Source: an uncultured Nitrospiraceae bacterium (GTDB lineage: Bacteria; Nitrospirota; Thermodesulfovibrionia; Thermodesulfovibrionales; UBA9159). From it: a DNA stretch of 33,461 nucleotides. The position numbers and the translations under genes are program-made. The notes under the pieces are model-generated. The model was not told where the DNA came from. It saw nothing but the letters and a program-made list of their open reading frames with translations, and made no database searches. Shown piece after piece: positions 1,984-33,403 of this stretch; position 1 is the stretch's first letter; every line of letters begins with the position of its first letter. Location of the stretch: NCBI GenBank assembly GCA_947085305.1, contig CAMTVV010000156.1:1-33461 (forward strand), in the 5' to 3' direction.

Positions 1984-2001
1984 GAAAAATGGAAGCCTTC
2001 A

Positions 2002-2024
2002 GGGCGGGGGCACCCCGCCCCTAC
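2002..2024 (-). repeat. GTAG-family REP
   Basis: Minus strand GTAG followed by hairpin GGGCGGGG-TGC-CCCCGCCC. Confidence 0.75.
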
Positions 2025-2027
2025 AAA

Positions 2028-2362
2028 TATGCCCTCTGCTGACTTCTGTCTGCTCACCCGGTATGTCTCCATACAGGGCGCTACAGGGCTCATCATGAGG
2101 CGGTGTTTGTTTCGTGTTTCCCTTTGGGACTCATATCCGGTAACAGCTATCGGATATGCCGGGTTCTTGGTCAACCGGGTGGACTCTTTCCGGCCCTCTC
2201 TCGTGACTGTCCTGTCGCACGGCAAACAGATCTCCCCGGATTCGGTCACCCTTCCGCCCTTGCCTTCGGCTCGTACTTTTGGTAGTCTCCATTACTATGA
2301 ACACCTCCGGGTTCTCGTACAGGGGACTTTCACCCCATAAGCTCACGCCCGTGCCGGGCTAC
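2028..2362 (-). mobile_element. Group IIC(-attC) intron 5' remnant (domains I-III, no RT ORF)
   Basis: Minus strand starts GTAGCCCGGCACGGGCGTGAGCTTATGGGGTGAAAGTCCCC, contains CCGGGGAGATCTG and CAGAAGTCAGCAGAGGGCATA; follows TTGT of an attC bottom strand. Confidence 0.8.
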
Positions 2363-9101: not shown

Positions 9102-9983
9102 ATGACATCTGAAGACGCCGCCAAACAACTGAAAGCAGATATTGAGGAGTGCGCTCGCCTGAGAGAAGAAAACAGGAGGCTCAGGTCTCTTGTGGGCATC
9201 CCGGAAGAAAAGCCTAATGCCGCTATAGCGGACAGCTTATCGCCCGAAGACAAGATTGCTCTGTTTCGCGGTCTCTTCCGTGGCCGAGAAGATGTTTACC
9301 CTGCAAGATGGGAGGCGAGAACTGGAAAATCCGGGTATTCTCCTGCCTGTGTCAACGAATGGAAGCGGCCTCTCTGTATCAAACCGAGTATCCGGTGCTC
9401 GGATTGCGAAAACCGGGAGCTTCTGTCTGTGACAAATGATGTGATCCAGTACCATCTTTCGGGAAAGCACACCATCGGGGTCTACCCGCTTCTTCAAGAT
9501 GAGACCTGCTGGTTTTTAGCTGTGGATTTCGACAAGGCCACATGGAAAGAAGATGCCGGGGCATTCTTAAAGACCTGTGAAGAGTTGAGTGTTCCGGCGG
9601 CACTCGAACGCTCCCGATCGGGTAATGGAGGGCATATCTGGATATTTTTCAATTCCCAAATTCAGACGGCACTGGCCCGAAAGCTCGGCTCAGCCGTACT
9701 TACCTATACGATGGAAAGGCATCCCCAGTTGGGTCTCGATTCCTACGACAGGCTCTTCCCGAGCCAGGATACCATGCCAAAAGGAGGGTTCAGGAGTCTT
9801 ATCGCCCTTCCGCTTCAGAGAATGCCAAGAGACAAAGGAAACTCTCTCTTTCTCGATAAGGACCTCAATCCTTATCCTGACAAATGGGCTTTTCTTTCAG
9901 GTATAATGAAAATGCGAAAGGAAGAGGTTGAAGCAATTGTCTACGAAGCCCAGCATAGAGCGGGAATGCAGCCAACGAAGTGA
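9102..9983 (+). pseudogene. AEP primase-like (TOTE-type) N-terminus of a primase-SF2 helicase, truncated
   Basis: LFRGREDVY, GYSPAC, GVYPL, AVDFD, ERSRSGNGGHIWIFF, LIALPLQ; ends before any helicase motif, at an intron remnant. Confidence 0.75.
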
Positions 9984-10160
9984 CTGAGCTAATGGGTGAA
10001 AGTCCCATCCTGACAATTGTCCGTAGCGGTCAGGTAGTTATATCTGGCATATAGGGAGGTAACAACCTATATGAAAGCCCAGAAGTAAACGGCCAGTCGG
10101 CTAAGCAGAGATGCTTAAGTCGGAACGATACAGGGGTCTAACAAAATGGCAAGCCTTAGC
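9980..10160 (+). mobile_element. Group II intron domain I fragment
   Basis: CTGAGCTAATGGGTGAAAGTCCCAT-CCTGAC...GTCAGGTAG and CATATAGG-GAGGTAACAA-CCTATATG hairpins typical of intron domain I; 5' GTGYG missing. Confidence 0.6.
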
Positions 10161-23555: not shown

Positions 23556-23585
23556 TTGACTATTTCCCTCCGGGGGTGCTATAAA
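23556..23585 (+). promoter_or_regulatory. Sigma70 promoter of riboswitch leader
   Basis: TTGACT, 18 nt spacer, TGc-TATAAA; start falls just before P1. Confidence 0.7.
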
Positions 23586-23590
23586 AGGAA

Positions 23591-23689
23591 CAGATTATCG
23601 AAAAGAGCAAACTATCCGAAAGGATAGGGCGCAAAGACCCGGTCTAACACCTGAAGAGGTCATGACAGCGGGTCTGCCGAAATAATCTG
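23591..23689 (+). ncRNA. GEMM-I riboswitch, A20 variant (predicted 3',3'-cGAMP / GEMM-Ib)
   Basis: P1 CAGATTAT-CG/CG-ATAATCTG, AGCAAA, P2 CTATCC-GAAA-GGATAG, GCGCAAAG, P3 with CTAA/ATG receptor, ACAGCGG...TGCC. Confidence 0.9.
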
Positions 23690-23700
23690 GAACAGCCGGC

Positions 23701-23730
23701 AACCCATACCTTTTCAGGTATGGGTTTTTT
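23701..23730 (+). terminator. Intrinsic terminator (riboswitch expression platform)
   Basis: AACCCATACC-TTTTCA-GGTATGGGTT followed by a T run. Confidence 0.85.
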
Positions 23731-23757
23731 GTTTGGATGAGCGCCGGGAGGGAGCAG

Positions 23758-24867
23758 ATGGACATTGAAGAGACGGCCATACTGGTCGTTGATGACGACC
23801 CTTCCATTCTTGACTACCTTTCAATATTACTTAGGAAGAATAACTATCCTGTTATTCTCTGCAGCACCGCAAAGGAAGCACTAGCTCAAATACAAGACAA
23901 CTTGATCGCCTTTGTATTGACCGATATCAAGATGCCGGGAGTCTCGGGGATTGAGCTCCTGGAAGAAATTCATCGTCTTAATTTTGAAATACCGGTTATC
24001 TTGATGACCGGTCAGGCGGAACTCGATACTGCTATTGAGGCAGTAAATAAAGGTGCCTTTAGCTTCATCACGAAACCTTTCAATCGGGAATATCTCATCC
24101 GTTCAGTGGAGAAGGCGGTCAGACACTACCAGCTGATTAGAGCGGAAAAGAATTATAAGTACATGCTTGAAAATACGGTAATACAGAAGACACGAGAACT
24201 TGCGGATGTCGCTTTGATGGCGAGCAAGCTAAGCTTGGAGATCATTCAGCGTTTATCGGCGGTTGCTGAATTCAGGGACAGCTACACGGCTGCACACATA
24301 TCGAGAATCGGTCACTACTCAAGGAAGATTGCCGAGGTTATGGATATGCGTGAGGACTTTGTTGAAGGCATAGCTGTTGCAAGCTCTTTACAGGACATAG
24401 GGAAGATAGGGATACCTGATAAGATACTTTTGAAGGAAAGTCGTCTTACTGAGGAGGAATATCAGATAATAAAAGGACATACTGTCTTCGGCAGTAAAAT
24501 ACTCGAGAACTCGTCTCATCCGACCATACAGATGGCAACCTCCATTGCATTGAATCATCATGAAAGGTGGGAGGGGAAGGGATATCCGCGAGGGTTAAAG
24601 GGCAAAGAAATACCGATTGAGGCGAGGATAGTTAAGCTCGTTGACCAATATGATGCATTAAGAAGCAAACGGTCATACAAGCCATCGCTCAGTCATCAGG
24701 AAGCTTTCAGAATAATAACGAAGGGAGATGGAAGGAGCGAACCGGAACATTTTGCCCCAGAGGTGCTGGACGCATTCATAGAAAATGCATCACATTTTGA
24801 TCACATATTTAATTCTCATCAGGATTGCTCGCAGACTGTTTTTTCAACGCACCCGAAGGCACAATAG
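23758..24867 (+). CDS. Response regulator with HD-GYP domain (RpfG-like), HD replaced by QD
   Basis: REC: VDDD, TDIKMP, MTG, KPF. HD-GYP: RDSYTAAH, QDIGKIG, HHERWEGKGYP, DQYDAL...RSYK. Confidence 0.92.
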   Translation: MDIEETAILVVDDDPSILDYLSILLRKNNYPVILCSTAKEALAQIQDNLIAFVLTDIKMPGVSGIELLEEIHRLNFEIPVILMTGQAELDTAIEAVNKGAFSFITKPFNREYLIRSVEKAVRHYQLIRAEKNYKYMLENTVIQKTRELADVALMASKLSLEIIQRLSAVAEFRDSYTAAHISRIGHYSRKIAEVMDMREDFVEGIAVASSLQDIGKIGIPDKILLKESRLTEEEYQIIKGHTVFGSKILENSSHPTIQMATSIALNHHERWEGKGYPRGLKGKEIPIEARIVKLVDQYDALRSKRSYKPSLSHQEAFRIITKGDGRSEPEHFAPEVLDAFIENASHFDHIFNSHQDCSQTVFSTHPKAQ

Positions 24868-24868
24868 T

Positions 24869-25241
24869 ATGAAGAAGCTTAATTGTTGGGAATTGCAGAT
24901 TCCCTGCGGCAAGACCGCAGGGAATCTTAATGTAATGAATTTTTATCATTATATTCGCTCGCTAACCATTTAAGAAATGCGGGATGGAGCTGGGAGGGGA
25001 GAACTCTTCCGTCCTGGGGGTATGTCCTGCGTGGGTCGCCATAATGCTCGATGGCGTTCACGGCGGGACAAATGCAGGCAGGGCGTGCTGGGTAATAGCG
25101 GGTACTATGTGCAAAGGACAGGTGCAGGGCACGTTTGCCCAGAAATACAGGGACTGTGCCGTATGCAATTTTTATAAAGCTGTACGGGAAGAAGAAGGTG
25201 ACAACTTTCAGATGACAATAAACCTGCTTGGACTTGTTTAA
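24869..25241 (+). pseudogene. Two-CW domain protein interrupted by a 76-nt insertion
   Basis: Removing 24893-24968 restores MKKLNCWE-FKKCG...CPA...GRACWVIAGTMC...CAVCNFY (98 aa). Confidence 0.85.
24893..24968. mobile_element. Palindromic MITE-like insert, possibly derived from IS200/IS605 ends
   Basis: 13-bp perfect stem AGATTCCCTGCGG-CAAGA-CCGCAGGGAATCT plus AT-rich tail; ATT at both junctions. Confidence 0.7.
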
Positions 25242-31498: not shown

Positions 31499-33349
31499 AT
31501 GGTCAAGGATTTCATGCTCCACGGAAGCATTGGACCCTTCGAATTCTATGTCTTTGTGGCCGGAGCAAACGTCAGCAATACCTATTTTTACGAAGAAGCA
31601 GGCCCGAACATACGGTTTTTTTCGAGAGGAAATGAGCTCACGTTGTCCCCTGAAGGCGTCCATTACAAGGGCACCGGGGGTAATTTCTGCGAATACATGT
31701 TCGGCGTCGAGAAACCCTTCAAGGATCTCATTAAAAAGGACGTCCTGAATCGCCTCGTCATGTTCGGGGCTTTTCTCGATAAGACGGAAAGGCTCATCTT
31801 CACCAATGATACCGGGGGTTCAGAGGCGTTCCACCGGCTCTTCCTCCTCGGCCACGCCGTAAAGAACTACTATTTCTTCGTTTCCTCCGACGATAAAAGC
31901 GAATCCAGGAAGAGGCAGCGGCAGATATTGAGGTCTGTGGGGAAGTTCCTGAAGAGAACCGATCTTATTGCGGAAGACCGGGATGCGGAACTGGTGAACG
32001 GCCTGGTGAAGGAGCTCAACGAGCCCCGTTCCACGGTCTTTGTTTTTAAGCTCGTCCATTCCGAGAACCTGGAATATTCACGGGAATTCGAGGCGTTCTA
32101 TGAAGACAAGCGCATGCTGTTGCCCGAAGAAGAGGCCCGCCTGAATGCGGTTGCCATGAAATATCATATTGACGCTTACCAGCAGGAAAGAATGAAGATC
32201 GACAGCATGTACCGGCACGGCGAGAACAAGAGCATTGTGGATGAATACCGGGATATACTCCTTGACATCGCGAATAAGGAGACCGCAGAGCATTCGGAAC
32301 TGGCGAAACTCCACCGGCTGAGAACATTGAGCATAAGGAACAATATCCCGGGCATCCTCTTTGATACCCTCGATGATCTCCTTCTCAAGGACAAGGACGT
32401 GCCCGCCATGGAAGAGCCCGAATACCTCAAGGAAGCGCGGGCGATCCTGGAGAACCTCTTTTTTAAAGCTCCTTCTCTCAAGAGGCATATCATCAGGGAG
32501 GACATCGCTAAACTGATCATGGCAAAGCATATTGCCCATTCACACAGCGACATGGGCTTTGAGCGGGTGCTCCTCGATATCGGCAAGGCGTGCGATGAGT
32601 TCGCCAGGGAGAACAACGACTTCAGTATCTTCGAGGAGCTCAGCTCCATTATCACCTACTTCGACCGCTACGATAACATCCATTCCACAATGAGCAGGAT
32701 CGCATTCATGGAACATCTTGAACTGACCGAGAATGCTCTGAGAAGCCTTGTGGGGAATAAGAAGGAATTCGACGCCCTGGACAAGCCTCTTTTCAAGGAG
32801 ATCTTCATCAAGGAGCTCCTCGCGAATAAGTACATCACCTCCTTCGGAAAGAAACGGATAAAAGCCCTCAATGACGGCATCGGAAAGGTGCTCAGGGGCG
32901 ACGCATCCCTGAGGGATCTGGTAATGGAGCTCCATAAAATTAGTGAAGAGGAGAGGGTGTACAAATATATCCGCACTTCTTTAAAGGAAAGGCTTCACGA
33001 GTTATATACCTCGCTGAATATCAAGGAAGAAATGCTGAGAATCCGTAAGGAGATCGAAGCGGAACTGAGCAAGGAAGGAATAGCATGGGAGGTTCGTAAA
33101 AATCTCTTCGACAAGGCGCTCCTTGACCTCAAGAAGGAATCCTACTACCTCTGTCATCTCCTGCCTATCATCATGAGGGACAAAGACCTCGCGCTCAGGG
33201 AGGACTTCCTGAACAACAGCGGCCTCGACCGCTTCTACATCGAGGGGCTTGAAAAGGAATATCTGAAAGACAACGGATTCAGCTCCGCCATTCTCGAGTC
33301 GGTAAGGGAAGACCAGTTTTCAGGGGCTGGAGGCGGCGAGCGGATTTGA
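31499..33349 (+). CDS. Conserved protein, TIGR04442-like family
   Basis: 616-aa ORF with RFFSRGNE, GGNFCEYMFG, NRLVMFGA, YQQERMKID, REDFL..SGLDRFY; family recognised from memory. Confidence 0.75.
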   Translation: MVKDFMLHGSIGPFEFYVFVAGANVSNTYFYEEAGPNIRFFSRGNELTLSPEGVHYKGTGGNFCEYMFGVEKPFKDLIKKDVLNRLVMFGAFLDKTERLIFTNDTGGSEAFHRLFLLGHAVKNYYFFVSSDDKSESRKRQRQILRSVGKFLKRTDLIAEDRDAELVNGLVKELNEPRSTVFVFKLVHSENLEYSREFEAFYEDKRMLLPEEEARLNAVAMKYHIDAYQQERMKIDSMYRHGENKSIVDEYRDILLDIANKETAEHSELAKLHRLRTLSIRNNIPGILFDTLDDLLLKDKDVPAMEEPEYLKEARAILENLFFKAPSLKRHIIREDIAKLIMAKHIAHSHSDMGFERVLLDIGKACDEFARENNDFSIFEELSSIITYFDRYDNIHSTMSRIAFMEHLELTENALRSLVGNKKEFDALDKPLFKEIFIKELLANKYITSFGKKRIKALNDGIGKVLRGDASLRDLVMELHKISEEERVYKYIRTSLKERLHELYTSLNIKEEMLRIRKEIEAELSKEGIAWEVRKNLFDKALLDLKKESYYLCHLLPIIMRDKDLALREDFLNNSGLDRFYIEGLEKEYLKDNGFSSAILESVREDQFSGAGGGERI

Positions 33350-33403
33350 ACCGCTGCATAAAGGTTTTGCAGACCTCCCCCTTAGCCACTTGGGTACGCC
33401 GCC
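33328..33403 (-). tRNA. tRNA-Cys (GCA)
   Basis: GGCGGCG acceptor stem, CT-GCA-AA loop, TTCAAAT T-loop, U73 discriminator, encoded CCA; 76 nt. Confidence 0.97.

What the first reader, a model, noticed from the sequence alone, without database searches (positions are those of the whole stretch)
23556..25241. Candidate 3',3'-cGAMP circuit: A20 GEMM riboswitch, atypical REC-HD-GYP, two-CW protein
Seen: promoter, full GEMM-I aptamer, terminator and two tightly linked genes. Aligned by eye to V. cholerae Vc2 (G14...G20-G21-C22-AAA), position 20 is A (23606) and C92 is retained (23677). Established: A20/C92 marks the Geobacter-type GEMM-Ib riboswitches that prefer cGAMP. Here the flanking pair is G21-C46 as in c-di-GMP types, not the C21-G46 I recall for Geobacter. 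Inference: cGAMP controls expression of its own phosphodiesterase or receptor, possibly in a lineage where cGAMP signalling is little described.
Basis: partly seen in the sequence, partly recalled or inferred. Interest (0 to 1): 0.85.

Follow-up and report, generated by a model that had tools for sequence, protein, structure and literature searches.

The report
A20 GEMM-I riboswitch before HD-GYP gene
A genuine cyclic-dinucleotide riboswitch carrying the base change that permits cyclic GMP-AMP binding sits before a phosphodiesterase gene, in a bacterium that also encodes a likely cyclic GMP-AMP synthase, but which nucleotide it prefers remains untested.

Summary
Rfam c-di-GMP-I matches 23596-23681 at 76.5 bits. 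Vc2 position 20 is A (23606) and C92 is C (23677). An intrinsic terminator follows, then a REC-HD-GYP gene and a two-CW gene.

A20 is not a sequencing error. Two orthologous leaders, a roughly 96%-identical strain and contigs from four studies all carry it.

The genome (nearest named relatives are Thermodesulfovibrionales MAGs) encodes a GAF-GGDEF with all three Hypr signatures: Ser348, a non-Arg cross-dimer residue, and GGDEF rather than GGEEF. Its best solved-structure match is Geobacter GacA. A cGAMP source is therefore plausible.

Three corrections apply:
- A20 alone does not give cGAMP selectivity (PMC6140456).
- The HD-GYP has the canonical RxxK motif, not the cGAMP-specific RxxQ/N. Its only oddity is a strain-specific His-to-Gln change in the HD motif.
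- The two-CW gene is split by a 76-nt repeat element.

A conserved antiterminator predicts an OFF switch. This is a new member of a known kind, of moderate interest.

The parts
23556..23585 (+). Sigma-70-like promoter: -35 TTGACT (23556-61), 18-nt spacer, -10 TATAAA (23580-85).
   Evidence: Read by eye. The scan did not list it because its rule requires T at position 6 of the -10 hexamer. The same boxes stand before the orthologous aptamers of G013, G014 and L236.
23591..23689 (+). GEMM-I aptamer including P1 (5' strand 23591-98, 3' strand 23682-89). Pocket bases are A20 = 23606, G21-C46 = 23607/23632, A47 = 23633 and C92 = 23677.
   Evidence: Rfam RF01051 at 76.5 bits over 23596-23681. P1 appears in the centroid and MFE folds. 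It is the only GEMM-I in this genome.
23650..23664 (+). 5' strand of the predicted antiterminator (CCUGAAGAGGU, bulged C23661, then AUG). In the aptamer fold this stretch is the loop and 3' strand of the distal P3 hairpin.
   Evidence: It pairs with 23705-23718. This helix is the MFE fold at the transcript stage ending in ...CAGG for the window (-40.2), G013 (-38.5) and G014 (-41.0).
23701..23734 (+). Intrinsic terminator: stem 23701-11 / 23716-26, loop 23712-15, U-run 23727-34. Positions 23705-23718 double as the 3' strand of the antiterminator.
   Evidence: 11 pairs, 5 of them G-C. The 22-nt hairpin sequence is identical in G013, G014 and L236.
23758..24867 (+). RpfG-type response regulator: REC + HD-GYP. 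The longest ORF starts at 23737. Features are HD motif = QD (Q219, CAG 24391-93), HHE-GYP intact, RxxK = RSYK.
   Evidence: Pfam Response_reg 97 bits and HD_5 122 bits. NCBIfam NosR-family 227.7 bits, below its cut-off of 400. Alignment to PmGH 4mcw. Motif comparison across homologs.
24869..24892 (+). 5' fragment of the two-CW gene (MKKLNCWE, the first CW motif). It starts 1 nt after the HD-GYP stop codon.
   Evidence: Translation (ORF 24785-24973). Intact homologs read KLNCWEFKKCG (L026).
24893..24968 (+). 76-nt palindromic repeat element (REP/MITE-like) inserted in the two-CW gene. It shifts the reading frame by +1.
   Evidence: A second copy lies at G000:C132:1010-1080, 93% identical over 71 nt. 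The hairpin core occurs 14 times in the genome. Other contigs of X1 and X4 match only 24891/2-24932/67.
24969..25241 (+). 3' part of the two-CW gene (FKKCG..., the second CW motif).
   Evidence: NF045718 at 96.3 bits, profile positions 6-80, when read from 24969.

Best explanation
A sigma-70-type transcript begins with a complete GEMM-I (c-di-GMP-I family) aptamer of the A20 subtype.

Proposed mechanism, inferred from folding:
- Without ligand, the loop and 3' strand of the distal P3 hairpin (23650-64) pair with the 5' arm, loop and first bases of the 3' arm of the terminator (23705-18). This antiterminator lets RNA polymerase read into the operon.
- With ligand, the aptamer is locked, the terminator (23701-26 plus U-run) forms, and transcription stops. 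The element is therefore a predicted OFF switch.

The controlled operon encodes an RpfG-type REC-HD-GYP phosphodiesterase and a small two-CW domain protein.

The ligand is a 3',3' cyclic dinucleotide with G at the C92 site. A20 makes 3',3'-cGAMP an acceptable ligand. The genome encodes a conserved GacA-like Hypr GGDEF, so cGAMP is probably made and sensed here. My odds are about 65-70% that cGAMP binds at useful affinity and about 35% that the aptamer is selective over c-di-GMP.

The enzyme's RxxK motif points to c-di-GMP, or to both nucleotides, as substrate. The circuit may therefore be cross-talk rather than simple self-regulation.

In this strain the operon looks degraded. The metal-binding His of the HD motif is Gln, and the two-CW gene is split by a repeat element.
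For: Aptamer:
- Rfam 76.5 bits, the best score among the 41 genomes searched.

A20 is fixed:
- The orthologous leaders of G013 and G014 have A at this position.
- So does metagenome contig L236.
- No difference at 23606 appears among the 40 rows shown for runs X1, X4, X6 and X7 from four studies. Twenty further rows were not shown.

Antiterminator:
- At the '...CAGG' stage it is the MFE fold in all three orthologs. The aptamer-type folds of the transcript one base shorter score -36.8, -30.4 and -34.0.
- The terminator hairpin, including its loop, is invariant, while the linker before it varies.
- The purine run differs among orthologs (GAAGAG, GAGAAG, GGAAAG) but always pairs with UUUU.
- The only strain difference inside the antiterminator helix (C23661G) falls on the bulged base.

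cGAMP source, G000:C152:5003-6385(-), a GAF + GGDEF protein:
- GHLVGS, giving Ser at the GacA 348 position.
- NSRY, giving Ser at the cross-dimer 304 position, where PleD has Arg.
- GGDEF, plus an RSID I-site.
- Best solved-structure match is 6d9m (GacA Hypr GGDEF) at 168 bits, against 115 for the next.
- These are the signatures described in PMC6456294.
- Ser and GGDEF were found in 27 of 27 ortholog rows and in 29 of 29 rows from the phylum sample.

Enzyme:
- REC with an intact acceptor site, HHE-GYP and RSYK.
Against: - No binding data exist. A20 aptamers can be bispecific or prefer c-di-GMP (PMC6140456).
- The genome also has 6 canonical Asp-type GGDEFs, so c-di-GMP is available.
- The HD-GYP lacks the RxxQ/N signature of cGAMP-specific enzymes.
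- The Hypr ortholog also occurs in relatives that have no GEMM-I riboswitch at all, for example G005, G006, G016 and G018. Co-occurrence therefore says little.
- At full length, the aptamer plus terminator (-55.2) beats the antiterminator (-47.7). The OFF model depends on kinetic control.
- Only three orthologs and one strain are available, and no helix position shows a double compensatory change.
- Geobacter cGAMP riboswitches are ON switches (PMC6456294).
Confidence: 0.6

Rival explanations
1. This is an ordinary c-di-GMP circuit. The A20 aptamer binds c-di-GMP as well as or better than cGAMP, and it regulates a c-di-GMP phosphodiesterase.
For: - Vc2 G20A and the natural A20 aptamer Cbe 1-2 bind c-di-GMP at 53 and 30 nM (PMC6140456).
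- The HD-GYP has the canonical RxxK motif.
- A at position 20 is common in this order: 28 of 112 aligned GEMM-I hits, in 12 of 23 genomes.
- The genome holds canonical GGDEFs.
Against: - A20 is kept in all four related leaders, although a G would bind c-di-GMP far more tightly.
- A Hypr GGDEF with all three signatures is present and conserved.
Confidence: 0.3
2. The element is an ON switch, as in Geobacter. Ligand binding allows read-through, so a high nucleotide level induces the phosphodiesterase (negative feedback).
For: - All Geobacter GEMM-Ib riboswitches studied activate expression (PMC6456294).
- Feedback induction of a degrading enzyme is intuitive.
- The terminator is strong and lies only about 12 nt before the ribosome-binding site, so read-through must be regulated.
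Against: - The P1 3' strand does not overlap the terminator.
- No pairing was found that would break the terminator only when ligand is bound.
- The only conserved competitor of the terminator uses aptamer P3, which ligand binding should lock away.
Confidence: 0.25
3. The QD-GYP protein is a deliberate, functional variant, for example a nucleotide receptor or trigger enzyme, rather than a damaged enzyme.
For: - The Gln codon is present in contigs from two studies (X1 at depth 219, X4 at depth 4.8).
- All other catalytic motifs and the REC domain are intact.
Against: - Every other homolog read has HD. That is 26 loci, the G014 ORF, and L236.
- The roughly 96%-identical strain (X6, X7) has CAT = His at the same codon.
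- The neighbouring two-CW gene is also disrupted, which suggests local decay.
Confidence: 0.15

Closest known systems
GEMM-Ib cGAMP riboswitches of Geobacter (e.g. Gs1761, Gm0970)
   Same: Same Rfam family and fold. A at position 20 and C at position 92. The genome encodes a Hypr GGDEF.
   Different: - Different phylum: the nearest named relatives are Thermodesulfovibrionales/Nitrospiraceae MAGs.
- Predicted OFF rather than ON.
- Controls an HD-GYP response regulator rather than cytochrome or pilus genes.
- Selectivity is untested.
Vc2 c-di-GMP-I riboswitch of Vibrio cholerae, and its G20A mutant
   Same: The pocket layout is G21-C46, A47 and C92, with a GAAA tetraloop on P2. The window's pocket equals the G20A mutant at the positions checked.
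   Different: Wild-type Vc2 has G20. The G20A mutant is bispecific (PMC6140456), which is why selectivity cannot be read from the sequence here.
GacA / GacB Hypr GGDEF cGAMP synthases (Geobacter, Myxococcus)
   Same: Ser348, GGDEF, a non-Arg cross-dimer residue, an RxxD I-site, and a GAF-GGDEF layout as in GacB (bioRxiv 10.1101/600031). The best solved-structure match is 6d9m.
   Different: The cross-dimer residue is Ser, not Tyr. The N-terminal 120 residues match no Pfam family. The product is untested.
RpfG-type REC-HD-GYP phosphodiesterases; PmGH (4mcw); PmxA-type cGAMP-specific HD-GYPs
   Same: REC + HD-GYP architecture, with HHE, GYP, the DxxDA motif and the RxxK motif shared with PmGH.
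   Different: - The HD His is Gln.
- The residue at the PmGH E185 position is Tyr.
- It lacks the RxxQ/N signature of PmxA/Bd2325.

Membership tests
GEMM-I / c-di-GMP-I riboswitch (RF01051) | Covariance-model score above the curated threshold over the whole model | tested here: met
   76.5 bits against 35, model positions 1-87.
GEMM-I / c-di-GMP-I riboswitch (RF01051) | G at Vc2 position 20, pairing with the Hoogsteen face of the first guanine | tested here: not met
   A at 23606. This places it in the A20 subtype.
GEMM-Ib (cGAMP riboswitch) | A20 together with C92 | tested here: met
   A23606 and C23677. A20 is also present in G013, G014 and L236.
GEMM-Ib (cGAMP riboswitch) | Selective binding of 3',3'-cGAMP over c-di-GMP | not testable with these tools
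   Sequence cannot decide this. A20 aptamers range from selective to c-di-GMP-preferring (PMC6140456).
GEMM-Ib (cGAMP riboswitch) | A cGAMP synthase in the same genome | tested here: met
   A Hypr-type GGDEF lies at G000:C152. No SMODS-family CD-NTase was found (genome 93.5% complete). The enzyme's product is inferred.
Hypr GGDEF (GacA family) | Ser/Thr at position 348 in place of Asp | tested here: met
   GHLVGS, aligned to GacA GHLVGS in 6d9m.
Hypr GGDEF (GacA family) | GGDEF, never GGEEF (Goldilocks rule) | tested here: met
   RYGGDEF. The rule is from PMC6456294.
Hypr GGDEF (GacA family) | Cross-dimer residue 304 is not Arg | tested here: met
   NSRY, against GacA NYRY and PleD NRRY.
Hypr GGDEF (GacA family) | Makes cGAMP | not testable with these tools
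   Requires expression and LC-MS.
HD-GYP phosphodiesterase | HD metal-binding dyad | tested here: not met
   LQDIGK, against PmGH MHDIGK.
HD-GYP phosphodiesterase | HHE...GYP motif and Pfam HD_5 score above cut-off | tested here: met
   HHERWEGKGYP. HD_5 scores 122.1 bits against a cut-off of 27.2.
cGAMP-specific HD-GYP (GAP; PmxA, Bd2325) | Rxx(Q/N) in place of Rxx(K/R) | tested here: not met
   RSYK, aligned to PmGH RPYK. None of the other HD-GYP ORFs read in the genome shows RxxQ/N.
two-CW domain protein (NF045718) | Profile score above cut-off | tested here: met
   96.3 bits against 35, for 24969-25238.
two-CW domain protein (NF045718) | Both CW motifs in one open frame | tested here: not met
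   The first motif (NCWE, 24881-92) is in another frame, separated by the 76-nt element.

The most novel reading that the evidence does not exclude
Hypr-GGDEF/cGAMP signalling may be an old, widespread trait of this Nitrospirota lineage. The Hypr-type GGDEF was found in 35 of 151 sampled genomes of the phylum.

A20 GEMM-I riboswitches would be its RNA effectors. Here a cGAMP-selective OFF switch would shut down a c-di-GMP-type HD-GYP. cGAMP would then raise c-di-GMP, which in turn inhibits the Hypr enzyme through its I-site.

The uncharacterised Cys-rich two-CW domain recurs behind GEMM-I riboswitches and is fused to PAS-GGDEF, chemoreceptor and kinase modules. It would be a sensory partner of this network.
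Probability: 0.25. Interest if true: 0.7.

Novelty: new member of a known kind. Interest (0 to 1): 0.5.

Why it matters
cGAMP signalling through Hypr GGDEFs and GEMM-Ib riboswitches has been worked out in Geobacter, Myxococcus and Bdellovibrio. A third component set in a different phylum would show that this pathway is older and broader than its founding examples. That set would be a conserved Hypr-type synthase, A20 riboswitches in 12 of 23 riboswitch-bearing relatives, and an HD-GYP under riboswitch control.

It would also supply a compact pair of natural test cases, the window's strain and its 96%-identical relative. These could be used to study riboswitch selectivity, OFF-type expression platforms and the role of the HD histidine.

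I found no paper linking Thermodesulfovibrio or Nitrospir* with cGAMP or Hypr in the held library. The primary papers and their supplements could not be read, however, and they may list such genomes.

Tried and rejected
- Position 20, first attempt. A strict regular expression missed most hits. I replaced it with an nhmmer alignment.
- ON-switch search. I looked for overlap between the P1 3' strand and the terminator and found none. A 6-bp GAAAAG/CUUUUC pairing was considered and dropped as too weak.
- Folding constraint. The '<' constraint was not enforced. One search repeats the test with enforced pairs.
- CD-NTase. PF18144 (SMODS) gave no match in the genome. This was one family only, in a 93.5%-complete genome.
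- cGAMP-specific HD-GYP. No RxxQ/N motif appeared in the HD-GYP ORFs read from 10 HD_5 matches.
- Expression. No RNA holder was listed for this stretch.
- Primary papers. Kellenberger 2015, Nelson 2015 (not tried by id), Ren 2015 and Hallberg 2016 are not held. What I say about them comes from passages of papers that cite them. Supplements are closed.
- Literature on 'two-CW'. One unrelated paper only.
- The Geobacter aptamer sequence could not be fetched.
- Structure prediction, complex prediction, the protein atlas and the large protein searches were not used.
Full report
**What is there**

Rfam's c-di-GMP-I model matches window 23596-23681 on the + strand over its whole length, at 76.5 bits against a threshold of 35. 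In that alignment:
- Model position 11, a consensus G that corresponds to G20 of the Vibrio Vc2 aptamer, is A at 23606.
- The CC at model positions 83-84 is C23677 and C23678, so C92 is kept.
- The G21-C46 pair is G23607-C23632.
- The intercalating A47 is A23633.
- P2 ends in a GAAA loop.

P1 is formed by 23591-98 and 23682-89.

A strong intrinsic terminator follows, with stem 23701-26 and then a U-run.

The scan did not list it because of a rule about the last base of the -10 hexamer. The same boxes precede the related leaders.

This is the only GEMM-I element found in the 2.09-Mb, 93.5%-complete genome.

**Is A20 real?**

Yes. A REC-HD-GYP ortholog is preceded by the same aptamer in only two other genomes of the 41 searched. 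This comes from comparing the coordinates. The two orthologs are G013 (84% protein identity) and G014 (71%). Both aptamers have A at position 20, and the P2 stem shows a compensating change.

Contigs from four studies were laid on the region:
- X1 and X4 match the window.
- X6 and X7 carry a strain with 47-48 differences in about 1295 bases.

No difference at 23606 is listed in any of the four runs. Forty rows were shown and 20 were not.

An independent metagenome contig (L236) was found with a pattern that left position 20 open. It also has A there.

**How common is A20 nearby?**

I fetched 113 loci holding the 114 above-threshold GEMM-I hits of the 41 genomes. The 13 hits below threshold were not fetched. 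nhmmer aligned 112 rows, and two loci (L115, L118) gave no row.

| Base at position 20 | Rows |
|---|---|
| G | 83 |
| A | 28 |
| gap | 1 |

Twelve of the 23 genomes with a riboswitch have at least one A20 copy.

Both orientations of the 21-46 pair occur with both G20 and A20.

**Is a cGAMP synthase present?**

The genome has nine GGDEF domains. One of them, G000:C152:5003-6385 on the minus strand, encodes a 461-aa GAF + GGDEF protein. It reads:
- GHLVGS where diguanylate cyclases have GHxxGD.
- NSRY where PleD has NRRY and GacA has NYRY.
- GGDEF, preceded by an RSID I-site.

Its best solved-structure relative is the Geobacter GacA Hypr GGDEF (6d9m) at 168 bits, against 115 for the next.

Passages of Hallberg et al. 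2019 (PMC6456294) name exactly these three features:
- Ser348.
- GGDEF and never GGEEF.
- A cross-dimer residue that is Tyr, Ser, Ala or Gln in cGAMP producers and Arg in enzymes that make more c-di-GMP.

Conservation of the Hypr-type enzyme:
- Homologs at E <= 1e-40 occur in 37 of the 41 relatives.
- Of 30 fetched loci, 27 gave a row with my filter, and all 27 have Ser and GGDEF.
- In an even sample of the phylum, 35 of 151 genomes have a close homolog.
- Twenty-nine of the 30 phylum loci gave a row. All 29 have the Ser and GGDEF, with S, T, M, L, Y or F, never R, at the cross-dimer site.

No SMODS-type CD-NTase was found.

The enzyme also occurs in relatives without any GEMM-I, so its presence is permissive rather than specific evidence.

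**What A20 does and does not show**

I read passages of Keller et al. 2018 (PMC6140456). They report:
- The adenine pairs with the adenine of cGAMP.
- Vc2 G20A binds c-di-GMP at 53 nM and cGAMP at 120 nM.
- The natural A20 aptamer Cbe 1-2 prefers c-di-GMP (30 against 463 nM).
- The determinants of selectivity are unresolved.

The primary papers by Kellenberger, Nelson and Ren were not held. Selectivity cannot be read from this sequence.

**Expression platform**

The P1 3' strand does not overlap the terminator.

A different competitor is conserved. CCUGAAGAGGU-c-AUG (23650-64) is the loop and 3' strand of the distal P3 hairpin. It pairs with CAU-ACCUUUUCAGG (23705-18), which is the 5' arm, the loop and the first bases of the 3' arm of the terminator.

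Folding energies in kcal/mol. The antiterminator fold is the MFE for the transcript ending at '...CAGG'. The aptamer-type fold is the one returned for the transcript one base shorter.

| Sequence | Antiterminator fold | Aptamer-type fold |
|---|---|---|
| Window | -40.2 | -36.8 |
| G013 | -38.5 | -30.4 |
| G014 | -41.0 | -34.0 |

The terminator hairpin, loop included, is identical in all four leaders, while the linker before it varies.

Ligand binding should lock P3 and favour the terminator, so I predict an OFF switch, at about 65% odds. The model depends on kinetic control, because the full-length transcript prefers aptamer plus terminator (-55.2 against -47.7).

**The genes**

The first gene is an RpfG-type response regulator with a normal receiver domain and an HD-GYP domain.

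Aligned to PmGH (4mcw), it keeps the first His, HHE, GYP and the DxxDA motif. It reads RSYK where PmGH has RPYK, the RxxK motif that contacts guanine.

I read the whole main text of Wright et al. (bioRxiv 10.1101/600031). They show that cGAMP-specific HD-GYPs have RxxQ or RxxN. This protein does not, and neither do the other HD-GYP ORFs read in the genome. Vibrio V-cGAP3 has RPYR, so cGAMP hydrolysis is not excluded.

The atypical feature is LQDIGK in place of HD. Every other homolog read has His:
- 26 loci (three further loci gave no row with my filter).
- The G014 ORF.
- L236.

At base 24393, X1 and X4 carry G (Gln), while the 96% strain in X6 and X7 carries T (CAT, His). This is a recent, strain-specific change at a metal-binding residue, and most simply a loss of activity.

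**The two-CW gene**

Read from 24969, it matches from position 6.

The missing start, MKKLNCWE, lies at 24869-92, one base after the HD-GYP stop and in another frame. Between the two pieces are 76 nt containing a 13-bp hairpin. Evidence that this is a repeat element:
- The unit recurs at G000:C132 (93% identity).
- Its hairpin core occurs 14 times in the genome.
- Other contigs in X1 and X4 match only this unit.

The gene is therefore interrupted by a REP/MITE-like element. In X7 the region 24845-25195 is replaced by 19 letters, and X6 and L236 diverge after 24844.

Two-CW domains are common in the order, in 39 of 41 genomes. They lie behind a GEMM-I riboswitch in two other genomes:
- G019: an A20 riboswitch directly before the gene.
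- G031: a G20 riboswitch, with a weak PilZ-like ORF in between.

They are also fused to PAS-GGDEF, PAS, chemoreceptor and histidine-kinase modules. This points to a signalling accessory domain. No literature on it was found.

**Verdict**

The element is a new member of the A20 GEMM-I group, in a lineage where I found no published cGAMP work. It has a probable OFF platform and controls an operon that is partly degraded in this strain.

Noticed in passing
window 9102-10130: ORF 9102-9983 matches the AEP-TOTE primase domain of the TOTE conflict system (328.8 bits). It is followed within 7 nt by an Rfam group-II-D1D4-4 RNA motif at 9990-10130 (58.6 bits). The next ORFs downstream are GDPD and ZIP proteins, so this is a structured RNA beside a defence-type primase rather than a full intron.
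   Followed up: partly
window 1994-2080 (-): A second group II intron D1-D4 motif (group-II-D1D4-1, 57.9 bits) abuts a CopD-like ORF on the other strand (1504-1983). No intron-encoded protein was looked for.
   Followed up: no
G000 genome-wide; window 24902-24927: A palindromic repeat family with the core CCCTGCGG-N-CCGCAGGG has 14 exact-core copies on 14 contigs, often within a longer conserved unit. It looks like a REP/MITE family.
   Followed up: partly
G000:C152 (L033 471-1484, minus strand): The Hypr-type GAF-GGDEF gene overlaps at its end with a 338-aa Ras/Arf-like small GTPase ORF (Pfam Arf 31 bits, Ras 31 bits). This hints at a link between the synthase and an MglA-like polarity or motility switch.
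   Followed up: no
L013 (G002), L004 and L024 (G032): Other A20 riboswitches of the order precede secreted or surface proteins: SCPU pilus-type subunits, an FG-GAP repeat protein and a CARDB/BNR protein. In L013, an A20 copy and a G20 copy precede paralogous SCPU genes about 1.5 kb apart.
   Followed up: partly
window 33328-33403 (-): tRNA-Cys (GCA) at the end of the window.
   Followed up: no
L208, L211 (G001, G002): Two-CW-PAS proteins end in a Cys-rich tail (ICAWCKKIRD...HGICPEC) that matches no Pfam family.
   Followed up: no
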